Positions 50,755 through 55,224 of a stretch of DNA of 64,000 nt are shown here, in pieces. Position 1 is the first letter of the stretch. Each line of letters begins with the position of its first letter. Made by a program: the position numbers and the translations under genes. The stretch is from Candidatus Eiseniibacteriota bacterium (lineage in GTDB: Bacteria; Eisenbacteria; RBG-16-71-46): assembly GCA_033853925.1 (NCBI GenBank), contig JAWOLC010000016.1:16670-80669 (forward strand), read 5' to 3'. The notes below the pieces were generated by a model, which saw nothing but the letters and a program-made list of their open reading frames with translations, was not told the DNA's origin and did not search any database.

Positions 50755-51037
50755 GCCGATCGGAATGCGCGAGCGTCAGGCGTGGATCGTGGTCACCGCG
50801 GTGCTGTCGACCGCGCTGGCCTGGCTGGCCGCCCTGAGCCTGGCCCTGGTGTGGAGCGCGTACGTGGAGCGGGCCCCGGAACTGGTGGTGGTCATGCGCG
50901 CCCTGGGGCACGCCTTGCTGCAGGTGGGCCGGATCGGCGCGCCGGCGGCGGGAGCCGCGGGCGTCGCGTCCGCCCTCCTGCTGGCGGCCGCGCTGCCGCA
51001 CCGGGCCGGCGTCGCGAGGAGTGAGCGTCATGGCTGA
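50747..51037 (+). CDS. Small membrane protein
   Basis: Two hydrophobic segments; coupled between neighbouring genes. Start TTG 50747 or ATG 50765. Confidence 0.6.
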   Translation: MTEPIGMRERQAWIVVTAVLSTALAWLAALSLALVWSAYVERAPELVVVMRALGHALLQVGRIGAPAAGAAGVASALLLAAALPHRAGVARSERHG

Positions 51038-51809
51038 AGATTCTCCGCTCGACAGCGCCCGGCAGGAAGCGGGGCGCACCGTGTGTGGGGCCCAGTGCCG
51101 CCCGCGCTCGCTGCCCCCGGTCGGACGGGTCGTGGTCGGCCTCCTCATCGTCACGCTCGGCGTCCTCTTCACCCTCGACAACCTGGGAGTCGTGAGCGCC
51201 GGCGAGATCCTGCGCTGGTGGCCGGCGGTGCTGCTGCTCTACGGGCTCGCGAAGCTGACCGGCACCTGCTGCCGACGGGGACTGGTCGCCGGGACCATCT
51301 TCACGACCGCGGGCGCCGTGCTCCTGGCCCACGAGGCGGGATGGATCTCGGCCGACCCCTGGGACTTCTGGCCCGTGATCCTCGTCGTCATCGGCGGCTC
51401 CATGGTGGCCCGGTCGTGGCGGTCCGGCCGACAGCAGCAGACGGGCCCGCCGCCGGCGCCGGGGTCCGGCGAGCCCTCGTCCGCCATCCACACCTTCGCC
51501 CTCTTGTCGGGGGTCGAGCGGAAGGTCCTCTCGCAGGACTTCCGGGGCGGCGAGGTGACGGCCATCATGGGCGGACAGGATCTGGATCTGCGCGGCGCCC
51601 GGCTCGCCGACGGCGCCGCGTCCATCGATCTGTTCGTGCTCTGGGGCGGCGTGGACCTGCACGTGCCCGAGGGCTGGAAGGTGACGGTCGAGGCGACCAC
51701 GCTGCTGGGCGGCTTCGAGGACGCGACGCGCTCTCCGGTCGGCGAGGAGCGCGGACATCTGATCCTCAAGGGCCTGGTCCTGATGGGTGGGGTCGAGGTC
51801 AAGAACTGA
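51030..51809 (+). CDS. LiaF-like cell-wall stress membrane protein (TM region + C-terminal beta-helix domain)
   Basis: WWP/FWP TM repeats; FRGGEVTAIMGG, LDLRGA, LWGGVDLHVP, LMGGVEVKN. Confidence 0.82.
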   Translation: MAEDSPLDSARQEAGRTVCGAQCRPRSLPPVGRVVVGLLIVTLGVLFTLDNLGVVSAGEILRWWPAVLLLYGLAKLTGTCCRRGLVAGTIFTTAGAVLLAHEAGWISADPWDFWPVILVVIGGSMVARSWRSGRQQQTGPPPAPGSGEPSSAIHTFALLSGVERKVLSQDFRGGEVTAIMGGQDLDLRGARLADGAASIDLFVLWGGVDLHVPEGWKVTVEATTLLGGFEDATRSPVGEERGHLILKGLVLMGGVEVKN

Positions 51810-52891
51810 TGCATCCCTTCTTCCGCAGCCGCCAGCGGCTCGGGCTCTATCTGTTGAGCTGGCTCGCCGTCGTCGCCGTCCTGGCAGCCTTCGTCGGCGG
51901 GCTGCAGAGGCGCTCGGCCGAGTCCACCCTGGCCTTCGTCGTTCCTCTCGCGCTCGTCTACGCCTTCATCTGCCTCTCGGCCTGGTGGGTCTGCCGGGCG
52001 AACCCGCTCGAGCGCACGCCGCGGCTGCGGCTGTTCGGCGCCCTGGGCGCGGCCTCGATCCAGGCGAGCCTCTCGTGGGTCGCGATCGGCGCCGTCTGGG
52101 ACCTGTTCCTCACCAAGCGCCTCCATCTCGACCCCGGGCGCGAAGGCCTCCCCGCGGACCTCGTCTTCCTCTGGGTGGCGGGCAACCTGCTCTATGCCCA
52201 GTCGCTGGTGATCCACTACTTCATGCTCGCGCAGGAGAACGCGCGCGAAGCGGAGCGCCGGCTGCTGGCGACCCAGGTCACCGCGCGCGAGGCGGAGCTG
52301 CGGGCGCTGCGGGCCCAGCTCCATCCCCACTTCCTCTTCAACAGCCTCAACTCGATCAGCGCCCTGGTGGGGCAGGACCCCGAGGCCGCGCGGCGCATGT
52401 GCGGCCTGCTGGGCGACTTCCTGCGCACCAGCCTGGCCCTGGGCGGGCGGGAGCGTGTGGCCCTGGAGGAAGAGCTGGCCCTGGCCGATCGCTACCTCGC
52501 CATCGAGCAGGTGCGCTTCGGCGGGCGGCTGGCGGTGGAGCGGGCGGTCGAGCCCGCGGCGCTCCCCTGCCTCGTGCCTCCGCTCCTCATCCAGCCGCTC
52601 GTCGAGAACGCCGTGAAGCACGGAGTCGCGGACCGCACGGAGGGCGGGACGATCCGCATCGAGGCCCGCCGCCACGGCGCGACGCTGGAGATCGCGGTCG
52701 AGAACCCGCGCGACCCCGAGGCGCCGCCGCGGCGCGGCAGCGGGCTGGGGCTGGAGAACGTGCGCCAGCGGCTGGCCGCGCTCGATCCGCGGCGCGCCGG
52801 GCTGGACGTGGCCCAGGAGCCGGGGCGCTTCCGCGTGCGTCTGAGCCTGCCCGCCCTCGACGGCGCCCGTGCCCCCGCGAGGTCCGCATGA
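51809..52891 (+). CDS. LytS/YehU-type sensor histidine kinase
   Basis: LRAQLHPHFLFNSLN, IEQVRFG, QPLVENAVKHG, GLGLENV. Confidence 0.95.
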   Translation: MHPFFRSRQRLGLYLLSWLAVVAVLAAFVGGLQRRSAESTLAFVVPLALVYAFICLSAWWVCRANPLERTPRLRLFGALGAASIQASLSWVAIGAVWDLFLTKRLHLDPGREGLPADLVFLWVAGNLLYAQSLVIHYFMLAQENAREAERRLLATQVTAREAELRALRAQLHPHFLFNSLNSISALVGQDPEAARRMCGLLGDFLRTSLALGGRERVALEEELALADRYLAIEQVRFGGRLAVERAVEPAALPCLVPPLLIQPLVENAVKHGVADRTEGGTIRIEARRHGATLEIAVENPRDPEAPPRRGSGLGLENVRQRLAALDPRRAGLDVAQEPGRFRVRLSLPALDGARAPARSA

Positions 52892-53646
52892 GCGCCGCGG
52901 GCCGCACCCTGCGGGCCGTGATCGTGGACGACGAGGCCCCCGCCCGCTCCTTGCTCCGCGAGTACCTCGCCGCCCACTCGGAGGTCGAGATCCTGGCCGA
53001 GTGCGTGAACGGCTTCGAGGCGGTCAAGGTCATCTCCGAGCAGACACCGGACCTCGTCTTCCTCGACGTGCAGATGCCCAAGCTCGACGGCTTCGAGGTG
53101 CTCGAGCTGCTGGAGAAGCCGCCGGCCGTGGTGTTCGTCACCGCCTACGACGAGTACGCGCTCCGCGCCTTCGAGGTGCATGCCGTGGACTACGTGCTCA
53201 AGCCCGTGGCGCGCGAGCGGCTGGACGAGGCCCTGGCCCAGGTGCGCGCCCGCCTCGGCGGCGAGGCGCGGCCCGCGCCCTCCCCCGCCGCGCTGGCCGC
53301 GGCGGCGCGGCCGCCCGGGCAGTTCCTCGAGCGCCTGCTCGTCCGCGACGGCGCGAAGGTGCACGTCATCCCGGTGGAGCGCGTGGATTGGATCGAGGCG
53401 CAGGACGACTACGTGGCGATCCACGCGGCGGGCCGGTCCCATCTCAAGCCGCAGACCCTCGCCGAGCTGGCCGCCGGTCTCGATCCTGCGCGCTTCGTGC
53501 GCATCCACCGTTCCTACCTGCTCAATGTGGAGCGTCTGGCGCGGCTCGAGCGCTACGCGAAGGACAGCCACGTCGCGATCCTGACCGACGGCAAGCAGCT
53601 CCCCGTGAGCCGCGCGGGCTTCGCGCGGCTCAAGGAGTTGTCATGA
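52888..53646 (+). CDS. LytTR-family response regulator
   Basis: IVDDE, FLDVQMP, FVTAY, DYVLKP; LytTR FVRIHRSYLLN, PVSR. Confidence 0.96.
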   Translation: MSAAGRTLRAVIVDDEAPARSLLREYLAAHSEVEILAECVNGFEAVKVISEQTPDLVFLDVQMPKLDGFEVLELLEKPPAVVFVTAYDEYALRAFEVHAVDYVLKPVARERLDEALAQVRARLGGEARPAPSPAALAAAARPPGQFLERLLVRDGAKVHVIPVERVDWIEAQDDYVAIHAAGRSHLKPQTLAELAAGLDPARFVRIHRSYLLNVERLARLERYAKDSHVAILTDGKQLPVSRAGFARLKELS

Positions 53647-53752
53647 TTGCGCCGTCGTTCTCCCGCTCCTGATCGGTCGGTGGTAGGTTCGCTCTCGCGG
53701 TCGTGCCGGCCTGGACTCCCCGCGGGCCGCGCGCTCCCCGACGAGGCGGACG

Positions 53753-54229
53753 GTGCGGCGGATCCCGATCGCGGCGGGCGCTCCCGCGCCCGATTTCGAG
53801 CTGGAGAGCCAGACGGGCGAGCTCCTGCGCCTGGCTGCCGGGCGCGGGTCCGGCAGCCTGGTGCTCTACTTCATGCGGGCGTTCACCTGAGCGGTGTGCA
53901 TGCTCCACGCTGTCCAGTTGGGACAGGCAGCCAGTCGATTCGGTGAGCGCGGCGTGCGGTTCCTCGTCCTCGGCCCGGGCGGGCCGGCGCGGGCGCGGTG
54001 GCTCGCCCGCCTCGTGCGCGCCCCGTTCCCCGTGCTCGCCGACCCGGAGCGCGAGGCGTTCCTCGCCTACGGGTACGCGCGGCGGATCGTCTCCCCGATC
54101 CAGCAGAGCGGCACCGTGCTCGTGGATCCGGGGGGCGTGGTGCGCTACGTGCGCCGGGCCACGAACCCGCTCGGCGCTCTCGACCTGCCCGAGCTGGAGC
54201 GGGCGATCGCGGCCCTGCCGAAGGACTGA
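53753..54229 (+). CDS. AhpC/TSA-type redoxin selenoprotein (UxxC), UGA at 53888-53890 recoded
   Basis: GAGG + GTG 53753. GAPAPDFELESQTG...LVLYFMRAFT-UGA-AVC, then ORF 53894..54229 in the same frame (PFPVLADPE, GTVLVDPGGVVRY). The UGA sits at the first redox position of the thioredoxin fold. Confidence 0.82.
53888..53927 (+). promoter_or_regulatory. Putative bacterial SECIS element
   Basis: Perfect stem CTGTCC/GGACAG (53910-53926) with apical loop AGTTG starting 25 nt after the UGA. Confidence 0.6.
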
Positions 54230-54290
54230 GCGGAGCCGGGCCGAGGCGGACGATGGCCAGGCGCCGGAGGGAGGGGAGCGGTCGTGGGGC

Positions 54291-54385
54291 CCCGCGATCC
54301 TGGTGAACCGCGCGCCCGTGCTCGCGCTCTGGGCCGCCGTGGTGGCCGAGCGCCTGGGACACGAGCGCGAGGCGGCGCTCACGCT
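54291..54385 (+). pseudogene. Fragment of a conserved hypothetical protein
   Basis: ILVNRAPVLALWAAVVAERLGHEREAALTL is protein-like and recalls a family I remember starting INRAPVLTLWAAVVAERLG. No in-frame start, and the sequence degenerates afterwards. Confidence 0.35.
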
Positions 54386-54621
54386 GGTCCGCGCCCGCGA
54401 CGAAGCGCAGATCGTGCAGAGCGAACGCCGGCCCCGGCCCGAGCCCGATCGCCGTGACTTCGCCCGCCGACGAGAACTGGCGCGCGAAGAGCCCGAAGCG
54501 CTGGCAGCCCGGACCTGCCGGCGCCGCTGTCTCGATCCCCGGGGCAGGTGCTGGCCGAATGGGGTAAGGTGGCGTCGCTGTGCGACCTGGCCCGGCCGCC
54601 CCCTTTCGCTCCGAGGTGAGC

Positions 54622-55224
54622 ATGCGATTCCCACTGGTTGCGATCACTCTGGCCTCGCTCCTGTGCTGCGCGAGCCGGGCGACGGCCCTGGGCCGCGGAG
54701 AGCTGCTGCTCCAAGTCGACGGCGGTGCGGGCTTCGGCGTGGTGAACCAGCGCTACGCCCAGATGCAGCACACCTCGGGCACGCTCGGCGTCGGAGCGAG
54801 CCTGCGGATCAAGCCCGGCCTGCGCGCCCGACTGGAGGCGAACTACTTCTACTTCTGGCGCTCCCAGCCGGATGTCGCCACGGCGGAGCACGTCCGCTGG
54901 GATCCTTCGCACGTGAGCATGGCGCTGGCGGGCATCGAGCTGGTGTCGCCCGCCCCCAGCCAGGCGGCGCCCTTCACCGCCGTGGAGGTCGGAGTCGCGC
55001 AGGTGGCGATCGGCGATGCCCACGGCACCGCGCTGAACGGCCTCCCTTTCACGACTCCGGGTGACCGTCTGACCCGCCCGGCCATCTCGGTTCTCGCGGG
55101 CGTGCGCACGCGCCCCGTGGGCAAGCGCGGTCCGAGCCTCCTCGTGCAGCTCGGGTACGTGTTCATCGCCGTGCCCGGCAATCACGCGGCGATCGTGCCC
55201 CTCACGCTGGGAGCGGCGTTCTAG
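54622..55224 (+). CDS. Small outer-membrane beta-barrel protein
   Basis: Signal peptide, about 8 amphipathic strands, terminal Phe (LTLGAAF). Confidence 0.7.
   Translation: MRFPLVAITLASLLCCASRATALGRGELLLQVDGGAGFGVVNQRYAQMQHTSGTLGVGASLRIKPGLRARLEANYFYFWRSQPDVATAEHVRWDPSHVSMALAGIELVSPAPSQAAPFTAVEVGVAQVAIGDAHGTALNGLPFTTPGDRLTRPAISVLAGVRTRPVGKRGPSLLVQLGYVFIAVPGNHAAIVPLTLGAAF

What the first reader, a model, noticed from the sequence alone, without database searches (positions are those of the whole stretch)
53753..54229. Unannotated selenoprotein: redoxin with UxxC and a SECIS-like hairpin
Seen: an in-frame TGA splits an otherwise complete AhpC/TSA-type fold exactly at the first redox residue (FMRAFT-U-AVC). 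A perfect 6-bp stem with a G-containing loop (AGUUG) begins 20 nt downstream. Established: bacterial Sec insertion uses UGA plus an immediately 3' SECIS. Standard ORF callers truncate it to the 111-aa ORF shown. It implies selA/selB/selC/selD elsewhere in the genome, and it directly follows the LiaF/LytTR envelope-stress operon.
Basis: partly seen in the sequence, partly recalled or inferred. Interest (0 to 1): 0.72.

Follow-up and report, generated by a model that had tools for sequence, protein, structure and literature searches.

The report
Selenocysteine redoxin gene cut short by annotation
The "stop" codon inside this small redox-protein gene is almost certainly read as selenocysteine, so it is a real selenoprotein of an already known kind that gene callers routinely truncate.

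Summary

- **The gene.** Window 53753-54229 (+) is one 158-codon AhpC/TSA-fold gene. It has an in-frame TGA at 53888-53890, giving the motif FMRAFT-U-AVC. A 6-bp hairpin with an AGUUG loop lies at 53910-53926, starting at the 20th base after the TGA.
- **Sec against Cys in relatives.** In 127 related loci with a residue at this column, the codon is TGA in 32, TGC or TGT in 91 and Ser in 4 distant paralogues. The protein sequence is conserved on both sides of it.
- **The hairpin.** The TGA forms come from MAGs labelled Terriglobales, Gemmatimonadota and Dormiibacterota, and from soil and sediment metagenomes. Nearly all carry a hairpin at the same distance, with compensatory stem changes. It is built from codons that are rare in this genome (TTG is 2% of Leu codons, GGA 7% of Gly). 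It meets all four published bacterial SECIS constraints.
- **Sec machinery.** The genome has tRNA-Sec, selB and a selD that itself carries Sec. TGA is also the genome's commonest true stop. selA is missing from this 96%-complete, 195-contig MAG but present in most genomes of the genus, so an assembly gap is the likely reason.
[quoted passage not shown] It is not a canonical peroxiredoxin.
- **Neighbours.** It lies next to a LiaF/LytS/LytTR gene set, but only near relatives share that arrangement.

It is a new member of a known kind, of modest interest.

The parts
53743..53746 (+). Shine-Dalgarno-like GAGG, 6 nt before the GTG start
   Evidence: Read from the sequence. The same CGAGGCGGACG[A/G]TG motif precedes the next small gene at 54241-54255.
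53753..54229 (+). Full selenoprotein coding sequence: 158 codons plus the TGA stop. It encodes a Prx-like (AhpC/TSA fold) redoxin with a UxxC motif.
   Evidence: Translation. Pfam AhpC-TSA E = 2e-16 over residues 9-133. AlphaFold model with pLDDT 93.5. Orthologues match residues 1-158 across the TGA at 70-75% identity.
53888..53890 (+). Sec codon UGA (residue U46)
   Evidence: The aligned codon is TGA in 32 loci, TGC or TGT in 91 and Ser in 4 distant paralogues. This column is the invariant Cys of the family alignment.
53897..53899 (+). TGC, Cys49. It is the second residue of the UxxC motif and lies at the position of the peroxidatic Cys of peroxiredoxins.
   Evidence: Profile alignment to BCP/PrxQ structures. 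Some Cys-form homologues have Gly here, for example P0019 and P0024.
53910..53926 (+). SECIS hairpin: 5' arm 53910-53915 (CUGUCC), loop 53916-53920 (AGUUG), 3' arm 53921-53926 (GGACAG)
   Evidence: Folding. Covariation: 3 of 6 pairs show compensatory changes and 89% of cells are paired, against 33-64% when the pairing is slid. The loop starts at the same distance from the TGA in 15 of 21 distinct Sec forms. The rare codons TTG and GGA are kept.
54227..54229 (+). True stop codon, also TGA, with no SECIS behind it
   Evidence: TGA ends 627 of 939 long high-GC3 ORFs in this genome.
51021..53646 (+). Upstream neighbours, probably not part of the system: LiaF-like protein, LytS-type histidine kinase and LytTR response regulator
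   Evidence: Pfam hits. The arrangement is shared only with close relatives L023/L034, L110, L111 and L112.

Best explanation
Window 53753-54229 encodes a cytoplasmic, 158-residue selenoprotein of the Prx-like (AhpC/TSA fold) thiol:disulfide oxidoreductase kind, with the redox motif U46-A-V-C49.

**Decoding (inferred from the established bacterial mechanism).** During translation the hairpin at 53910-53926 would bind SelB-GTP carrying Sec-tRNA(Sec) through its AGUUG loop. The loop starts 25 nt after the UGA. This would deliver Sec-tRNA(Sec) to the UGA at 53888-53890, so selenocysteine is inserted and translation does not stop. The second TGA, at 54227, has no such hairpin and terminates.

**Chemistry (inferred).**
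- Sec46 lies just before the N-terminus of the first long helix, as the attacking Cys does in CxxC oxidoreductases. It is probably the attacking residue.
- After reaction it would form a selenenylsulfide with Cys49, which is then reduced by a thiol reductant such as thioredoxin.
- The substrate is unknown. It could be a disulfide, a peroxide or something else.
- The protein lacks the Pro, Thr and Arg that peroxiredoxins use to activate their peroxidatic Cys, so a thioredoxin-like reductase role is more likely than a classical peroxidase role.
For: **Shown**
- One reading frame with an AhpC-TSA match across the TGA.
- TGA in 32 loci, Cys in 91 and Ser in 4 distant paralogues at the aligned codon.
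- Differences between orthologues are third-position-biased both upstream (99/141/198 at codon positions 1/2/3) and downstream (149/137/217) of the TGA.
- The hairpin covaries: CUGUCC/GGACAG, CCGUCC/GGACGG, CCGCCC/GGGCGG, CGCCU/GGGCG and GCCCGC/GCGGGC. Thirteen cells have double changes, and 0 of 500 shuffles reach that number.
- All 21 distinct Sec forms have a stem of at least 5 bp in the SECIS window, against 42 of 83 Cys forms (Mann-Whitney p = 1.5e-6).
- The Leu codon in the loop is TTG in 17 of 21 Sec forms and 1 of 83 Cys forms. TTG is 2.0% of Leu codons and GGA 6.9% of Gly codons in this genome.
- All four published bSECIS constraints are met (PMC13188914): loop 5 nt, stem 6 bp, G at loop position 2 followed by U, spacing 25 nt, and hairpin energy -7.8 kcal/mol.
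- The genome has tRNA-Sec, selB and a selD with TGA at its active site, ACAG-U-ASK.
- All 7 other genomes with a TGA form have tRNA-Sec, and 6 of 7 have selB.
- TGA is the main stop codon of this genome.
- The model has pLDDT 93.5, with U46 directly before helix 47-64. The best structural matches are BCP/PrxQ, AhpE and ResA.
- Some homologues keep only the first Cys.
Against: - selA is absent from the assembly by Pfam, NCBIfam and tblastn with a genus-mate's SelA. No SepSecS substitute was found either.
- The fold energy of the region is no better than that of shuffled sequence.
- Short hairpins are also common downstream of the Cys codon in GC-rich Cys forms.
- There is no Rfam match.
- The biochemical role rests only on inference from motif and fold.
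Confidence: 0.92

Rival explanations
1. It is a nonsense pseudogene. A Cys codon (TGC or TGT) mutated to TGA, and the gene is dead in this organism.
For: TGA is one base change away from TGC or TGT. selA was not found in this MAG. One related contig, L137, does look decayed, with an extra in-frame TAG inside the hairpin.
Against: - The same TGA is found in 32 loci (21 distinct downstream sequences) from independent assemblies of MAGs labelled Terriglobales, Gemmatimonadota and Dormiibacterota, at protein identities from about 77% down to about 40% to this one.
- Both halves keep a coding pattern of substitution.
- A covarying hairpin is kept exactly behind the TGA.
- The hairpin is kept using rare codons.
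Confidence: 0.02
2. The annotation is right. The real product is the 109-111-aa protein that starts after the TGA, and the upstream 45 codons are non-coding or a separate small ORF.
For: Every public gene call for the TGA forms is a fragment of about 109 aa. An ATG and a GTG lie just after the TGA.
Against: - The fragment lacks strands 1-3 and the whole redox motif of the fold. The Pfam match and the AlphaFold model need residues 9-46.
- The upstream 45 codons are conserved as protein and align with the N-termini of the full-length Cys forms.
- A GAGG site sits 6 nt before the GTG at 53753.
Confidence: 0.02
3. The UGA is read through, but not as selenocysteine in this organism. It could be read as Cys, Trp or Ser by near-cognate decoding or a mischarged tRNA-Sec, because selA is truly absent.
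For: selA and SepSecS were not found.
Against: - The MAG is 96% complete in 195 contigs, with none shorter than 2.5 kb.
- selA is present in 6 of 8 genomes of the genus.
- selD of this genome also depends on a Sec-UGA and sits next to tRNA-Sec.
- TGA is the main stop codon, so there is no genome-wide reassignment.
Confidence: 0.04

Closest known systems
Prx-like thiol:disulfide oxidoreductase selenoprotein family (pfam00578; UxxC/UxxU). It was predicted by comparative genomics; the type example in reviews is WP_010940744.1 (PMC13188914, PMC9312934, PMC1088965, PMC2398784 'Prx-like 1').
   Same: - AhpC/TSA domain above the Pfam cut-off.
- A thioredoxin-like UxxC motif in place of the TxxU motif of Sec-peroxiredoxins.
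- Cys-containing homologues.
- A SECIS hairpin just downstream of the UGA.
- A function that is only predicted.
   Different: - I could not compare it directly with the type sequence.
- This clade has its own signature, [FY]FMR-x3-U-x2-C, and an almost fixed AGUUG loop.
- It comes from soil and sediment lineages (MAGs labelled Terriglobales, Gemmatimonadota and Dormiibacterota).
- Its best NCBIfam match is the SelL-related redox family, so it may be a separate subfamily.
BCP/PrxQ- and AhpE-type peroxiredoxins (PDB 3drn, 5enu, 1xvw)
   Same: Same fold: TM-score 0.84-0.87 and profile E = 1e-35 to 1e-39. Cys49 aligns with the peroxidatic Cys.
   Different: The Prx active-site Pro, Thr and Arg are replaced by Arg42, Sec46 and Ser/Gly. 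The invariant redox residue is the one at the Thr position, not the peroxidatic position.
CxxC thiol-disulfide oxidoreductases of the TlpA/ResA/DsbE group (PDB 1su9, 1st9, 3gl3)
   Same: A CxxC-type motif at the start of the first long helix on a thioredoxin-like fold with the Prx-type insertion. TM-score 0.71-0.74.
   Different: Those proteins are exported or membrane-anchored. This one has no signal peptide or anchor, and its sequence is closer to Prx than to ResA (NCBIfam ResA 19 bits).
NCBIfam NF040769, SelL-related redox protein
   Same: It is the best NCBIfam match, E = 1.7e-13 over residues 11-108.
   Different: The score is 50.6 bits against a cut-off of 120, so this protein is not a member.

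Membership tests
Bacterial selenoprotein gene (Sec-UGA plus bSECIS) | In-frame UGA with protein-coding conservation on both sides | tested here: met
   Orthologues match residues 1-158 across the TGA. Third-position-biased differences occur on both sides.
Bacterial selenoprotein gene (Sec-UGA plus bSECIS) | Cys in homologues at the column of the UGA | tested here: met
   91 loci have TGC or TGT and 32 have TGA. Only 4 distant Prx paralogues have Ser.
Bacterial selenoprotein gene (Sec-UGA plus bSECIS) | bSECIS model: loop 3-9 nt, upper stem 4-16 bp, G in the first two loop positions, 16-37 nt from the UGA, MFE <= -7.5 kcal/mol (PMC13188914) | tested here: met
   Loop AGUUG (5 nt), stem 6 bp, spacing 25 nt, hairpin -7.8 kcal/mol. 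Position is conserved and the stem covaries.
Bacterial selenoprotein gene (Sec-UGA plus bSECIS) | selA, selB, selC and selD in the genome | tested here: inconclusive
   selC scores 68 bits, selB 365 bits and selD 350 bits with its own TGA. selA was not found but is present in 6 of 8 genomes of the genus. The MAG is 96% complete.
Bacterial selenoprotein gene (Sec-UGA plus bSECIS) | Selenium actually incorporated into the protein | not testable with these tools
   This needs 75Se labelling or mass spectrometry.
Prx-like thiol:disulfide oxidoreductase selenoprotein (pfam00578, UxxC) | pfam00578 domain | tested here: met
   60.5 bits against a cut-off of 26.
Prx-like thiol:disulfide oxidoreductase selenoprotein (pfam00578, UxxC) | UxxC motif in place of the TxxU motif of Prx | tested here: met
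   U46-A-V-C49. U aligns with the Prx Thr and C49 with the peroxidatic Cys.
Prx-like thiol:disulfide oxidoreductase selenoprotein (pfam00578, UxxC) | Sequence kinship with the described members (for example WP_010940744.1) | not tested
   The type sequence could not be fetched with these tools.
Canonical peroxiredoxin (PxxxTxxC with a conserved Arg) | Active-site Pro, Thr and Arg around the peroxidatic Cys | tested here: not met
   In the profile alignment to 5enu and 3drn, Pro is replaced by Arg42, Thr by Sec46 and Arg by Ser/Gly.
NCBIfam NF040769, SelL-related redox protein | Score above the curated cut-off | tested here: not met
   50.6 bits against a cut-off of 120.

The most novel reading that the evidence does not exclude
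This may be a distinct subfamily of Sec-containing Prx-like redoxins that has not been described as such.

- It has the signature [FY]FMR-x3-U-x2-C and is related to the PRX_like2/SelL group.
- It is common in soil lineages (MAGs labelled Terriglobales, Gemmatimonadota and Dormiibacterota) and is truncated in every public gene call.
- The Sec sits at the Prx Thr position and is the only invariant redox residue, which would fit a mechanism centred on Sec alone.
- The SECIS, with its nearly fixed AGUUG loop, would have moved between phyla together with the gene.
- At least 3 to 6 Sec/Cys switches have occurred in the family.
Probability: 0.4. Interest if true: 0.45.

Novelty: new member of a known kind. 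Interest (0 to 1): 0.35.

Why it matters
- **Annotation.** It corrects an annotation error that recurs in public data. Every TGA form found here is on record as a fragment of about 109 aa that lacks its active site.
- **Reach of the family.** It adds soil and sediment lineages (MAGs labelled Terriglobales, Gemmatimonadota and Dormiibacterota) to the known range of Prx-like UxxC selenoproteins.
- **A useful comparative set.** The family gives 32 Sec forms and 91 Cys forms, with a short covarying SECIS. That set could serve to train SECIS and selenoprotein finders on high-G+C genomes, where hairpins alone are uninformative.
- **Limits.** It does not change what is known about Sec decoding or about redoxin chemistry.

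Tried and rejected
- **Rfam scan of 53700-54300 at E <= 10.** Only chance hits and no SECIS family.
- **Fold energy against shuffles.** Not significant (z = +1.13), so thermodynamics alone is not used as evidence.
- **"Any hairpin" as a discriminator.** Half of the Cys forms also have a stem of at least 5 bp in the window. I therefore relied on position, loop sequence, covariation and codon rarity.
- **L114 as a clean natural control.** L114 is a Cys form and sister to the G013 Sec form. I first read it as having lost the hairpin. In fact it keeps a weakened stem with two G-U pairs and has lost only the GUU of the loop (AGCUC), so it is a partial control.
- **Locating selA by synteny.** The flanks of selA from three genus-mates (L030-L032) have no useful counterpart in this assembly. 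tblastn with a genus-mate's SelA gives nothing better than E = 0.12.
- **An archaeal-type route.** SepSecS (PF05889) was not found.
- **Promoter and terminator scan of 53400-54700.** Nothing was found, so whether the gene is co-transcribed with the LytTR operon is undecided.
- **Source names for the truncated public proteins.** None are on record.

Full report
**What is in the sequence**

The window is contig C16 of a 3.79-Mb MAG with 195 contigs, 72.5% G+C and 96% estimated completeness. The frame that opens with GTG at 53753 has a GAGG six bases upstream and runs to TGA at 54227-54229. It holds one internal TGA at 53888-53890.

Read through, the frame gives 158 residues with the motif LYFMRAFT-U-AVC. 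Pfam AhpC-TSA matches residues 9-133, across the TGA, with E = 2e-16 and 60.5 bits against a cut-off of 26. The Redoxin family also matches.

Nineteen bases after the TGA comes a perfect 6-bp hairpin, CUGUCC-AGUUG-GGACAG, at 53910-53926. The ORF listing shows the 111-aa ORF after the TGA. The public gene call for this contig is a 109-aa fragment (P0002).

**Is the TGA a Sec codon? Comparison with relatives**

I gathered 133 related loci:
- 8 from relatives of this genome;
- 75 from one-genome-per-species contigs;
- 50 from metagenomes.

The codon aligned to 53888-53890 is TGA in 32 loci, TGC in 70, TGT in 21 and Ser in 4 distant ordinary-Prx paralogues. Six alignments did not cover the column.

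The TGA forms include:
- the same-genus MAG, labelled Terriglobales, at 70% identity;
- a same-family genome at 52%;
- Gemmatimonadaceae and Gemmatimonadota MAGs;
- three Dormiibacterota MAGs;
- many soil and sediment contigs.

The Cys forms are mostly Actinomycetota (Nocardia, Amycolatopsis, Micromonospora and others) and some Chloroflexota.

Matches to the TGA forms run through the TGA. For example, residues 1-158 match at 72-75% identity in L109-L112. Among the close orthologues, nucleotide differences are biased to third codon positions upstream (99/141/198 at positions 1/2/3) just as downstream (149/137/217). Both halves are therefore coding.

A maximum-likelihood tree separates two groups with SH-aLRT 99. 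One is an all-Cys Actinomycetota clade of 73 rows. The other is a mixed clade with 26 Sec and 7 Cys rows. The tree needs between 3 and 6 Sec/Cys switches. In the database search, about twenty homologues are 87-115 aa fragments, which fits gene calls that start after the TGA; P0003-P0012 begin at the Met just behind it.

**The hairpin**

Because the alignment is codon-anchored, the 21 distinct Sec-form sequences line up without gaps. Nearly all have a stem-loop at the same place; in L137 and in G013's L024 the stem at that place is imperfect.
- The loop starts 28 bases from the U of UGA in 15 of 21, at 29 in 3 and at 27 in 1.
- The stems differ by compensatory changes: CUGUCC/GGACAG, CCGUCC/GGACGG, CCGCCC/GGGCGG, CGCCC/GGGCG, CGCCU/GGGCG, GCCCGC/GCGGGC and GCCCGC/GCGGGU.

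On 17 distinct sequences the six pairs are 89% paired, against 33-64% when the partner is slid by 1-3 columns. Three pairs show changes on both sides (13 cells), and none of 500 shuffles reaches that number.

The loop is AGUUG in most forms. The variants are CGUUG, AGUUA, and CGGCUG or AGGCUG.

The hairpin costs the gene rare codons. In 939 long high-GC3 ORFs of this genome, TTG is 2.0% of Leu codons and GGA 6.9% of Gly codons. The homologous Leu is TTG in 17 of 21 Sec forms but in 1 of 83 Cys forms, which use CTC or CTG.

The element meets all four constraints of the published bacterial SECIS model (PMC13188914, read):

| Constraint | Required | Found here |
|---|---|---|
| Apical loop | 3-9 nt | 5 nt |
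| Upper stem | 4-16 bp | 6 bp |
| G in the first two loop positions | at least one | position 2, followed by U |
| Spacing from the UGA | 16-37 nt | 25 nt |
| Minimum free energy | <= -7.5 kcal/mol | -7.8 kcal/mol for the hairpin alone |

Some results point the other way.
- The fold energy of the 63-nt stretch is not better than that of shuffles.
- Half of the Cys forms also have some stem of at least 5 bp nearby.
- Rfam has no match.

The case for the hairpin therefore rests on position, covariation and codon choice.

**Sec machinery**

- ARAGORN and Rfam both find tRNA-Sec at C129:3000-3093, at 68 bits against a gathering score of 47.
- selD lies directly beside it, at 350 bits. It has its own TGA at the active-site position, ACAG-U-ASK, followed by a hairpin.
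- selB is on C82, at 365 bits over two stretches.
- selA is not in the assembly. PF03841 gives no hit, TIGR00474 gives E = 0.12, and tblastn with a genus-mate's SelA gives nothing.
- SepSecS is absent too.

selA is present in 6 of the 8 genomes of the genus. The two without it are this MAG and a 54%-complete one. This MAG has no contig shorter than 2.5 kb. I read the absence as an assembly gap but could not prove it.

Of the seven other genomes that carry a TGA form, all have tRNA-Sec and six have selB. Of eight Cys-form genomes, five have tRNA-Sec.

TGA ends 67% of the long ORFs in this genome, including this gene itself, so TGA is not reassigned genome-wide. I did not test that note.

**What the protein is**

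A profile of the family finds BCP/PrxQ and AhpE peroxiredoxins as the nearest solved structures, with E = 1e-35 to 1e-39. The AlphaFold model has pLDDT 93.5 and pTM 0.90. It has the Prx/Trx fold, and U46 is the residue just before helix 47-64. Foldseek gives Bcp1, Bcp4 and AhpE at TM-score 0.84-0.87 and ResA/DsbE-type CxxC oxidoreductases at 0.71-0.74.

In the profile alignment:
- Sec46 falls on the conserved Thr of the Prx T-x-x-C motif;
- Cys49 falls on the peroxidatic Cys;
- the Prx Pro is replaced by the family's invariant Arg42;
- the Prx Arg is replaced by Ser/Gly.

Within the family the Sec/Cys column is invariant, while Cys49 is Gly in some members such as P0019 and P0024. There is no signal peptide or membrane anchor in the sequence.

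This is what the selenoprotein literature calls a "Prx-like" protein. It is described as distantly related to Prx, with a thioredoxin-like UxxC motif in place of TxxU (PMC1088965). [quoted passage not shown] The ocean-metagenome survey lists the kind as "Prx-like 1" (PMC2398784).

The best NCBIfam model is the SelL-related redox protein, but at 50.6 bits against a cut-off of 120. From memory, the CDD group PRX_like2 is described in the same terms: a CxxC motif whose second Cys is the Prx peroxidatic Cys, without the rest of the triad. That is a lead and not a test.

**Mechanism**

- *Shown:* the gene, the conserved UGA, the covarying hairpin, three of the four Sec genes, and the fold.
- *Inferred from the established bacterial pathway:* SelB-GTP carrying Sec-tRNA(Sec) binds the hairpin loop and decodes the UGA 25 nt upstream of it. 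The terminal TGA, which has no hairpin, stops translation.
- *Inferred from motif and fold:* Sec46 is the attacking residue. It forms a selenenylsulfide with Cys49 and is recycled by a thiol reductant. A disulfide-reductase type of role is more likely than classical peroxidase chemistry. The substrate is unknown.

**Neighbourhood**

The LiaF-like protein, LytS-type kinase and LytTR regulator directly upstream are real, and a 106-nt gap separates them from this gene. The order LiaF-HK-RR-redoxin recurs only in near relatives (G001, L110, L111 and L112). An M14 peptidase lies downstream in a somewhat wider set. The Gemmatimonadota and Dormiibacterota loci share none of these neighbours. No promoter or terminator was detected. 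I see no basis for a functional tie to envelope stress.

**Verdict**

This is a genuine Sec-encoding gene, with confidence of about 0.92 on computational evidence. It is mis-called in public data and belongs to a known, uncharacterised kind of bacterial selenoprotein. It is a new member, and perhaps a new subfamily, of that kind. It is useful for annotation and for SECIS modelling in GC-rich genomes, but it would not surprise a specialist.

Noticed in passing
G000 contig C129:3000-4306 (not in the window): selD of this genome is itself a selenoprotein, with TGA at the active site (ACAG-U-ASK) and a GGUCC-GGC-GGACC hairpin 14 nt downstream. The tRNA-Sec gene lies about 290 nt downstream of it on the same strand.
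   Followed up: partly
window 54241-54580: In close relatives (L109-L112) a 189-aa gene follows the redoxin gene. It starts MTTRDT...ILVNRAPVLTLWAAVVAERLG... behind the same CGAGGCGGACGATG start region. In the window only about the first 50 codons are recognisable. The ATG at 54253 is out of frame with them, and a 17-nt deletion follows. It looks like a decayed remnant, and no Pfam family matches it.
   Followed up: partly
window 54580-55224: A 214-aa ORF with a signal-peptide-like start (MRFPLVAITLASLLCCASRA...) and no Pfam match lies between the remnant and the M14 peptidase gene. In L109 the M14 peptidase gene follows the 189-aa gene directly, with no room for such an ORF.
   Followed up: no
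L114 (metagenome contig WNFL01093930.1), around base 964: This is a Cys (TGC) form and sister to the Sec form of G013. It keeps the stem in the same register but with two G-U pairs, and its loop is AGCUC, not AGUUG. It looks like a recent Sec-to-Cys switch with a decaying SECIS.
   Followed up: partly
L137 (JGI24024J18818_10074120), around base 183: This TGA form has a further in-frame TAG inside the hairpin loop (CAG TAG GGG) and another stop later. It is probably a decayed copy or a poor assembly.
   Followed up: no
L132, L136, L138 and L140 (metagenome contigs): One Sec-form clade has replaced the usual hairpin with a different, stronger one at the same place (GCCCGC-CGGCUG-GCGGGC, up to 8 bp and -15 to -20 kcal/mol). 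Its loop has GC in place of GU, and the encoded residues differ (ARRLAG against AVQLGQ).
   Followed up: partly
G000 genome-wide: selA is missing although tRNA-Sec, selB and a Sec-dependent selD are present, and no SepSecS was found. The flanks of selA in three genus-mates have no usable counterpart in this assembly.
   Followed up: partly
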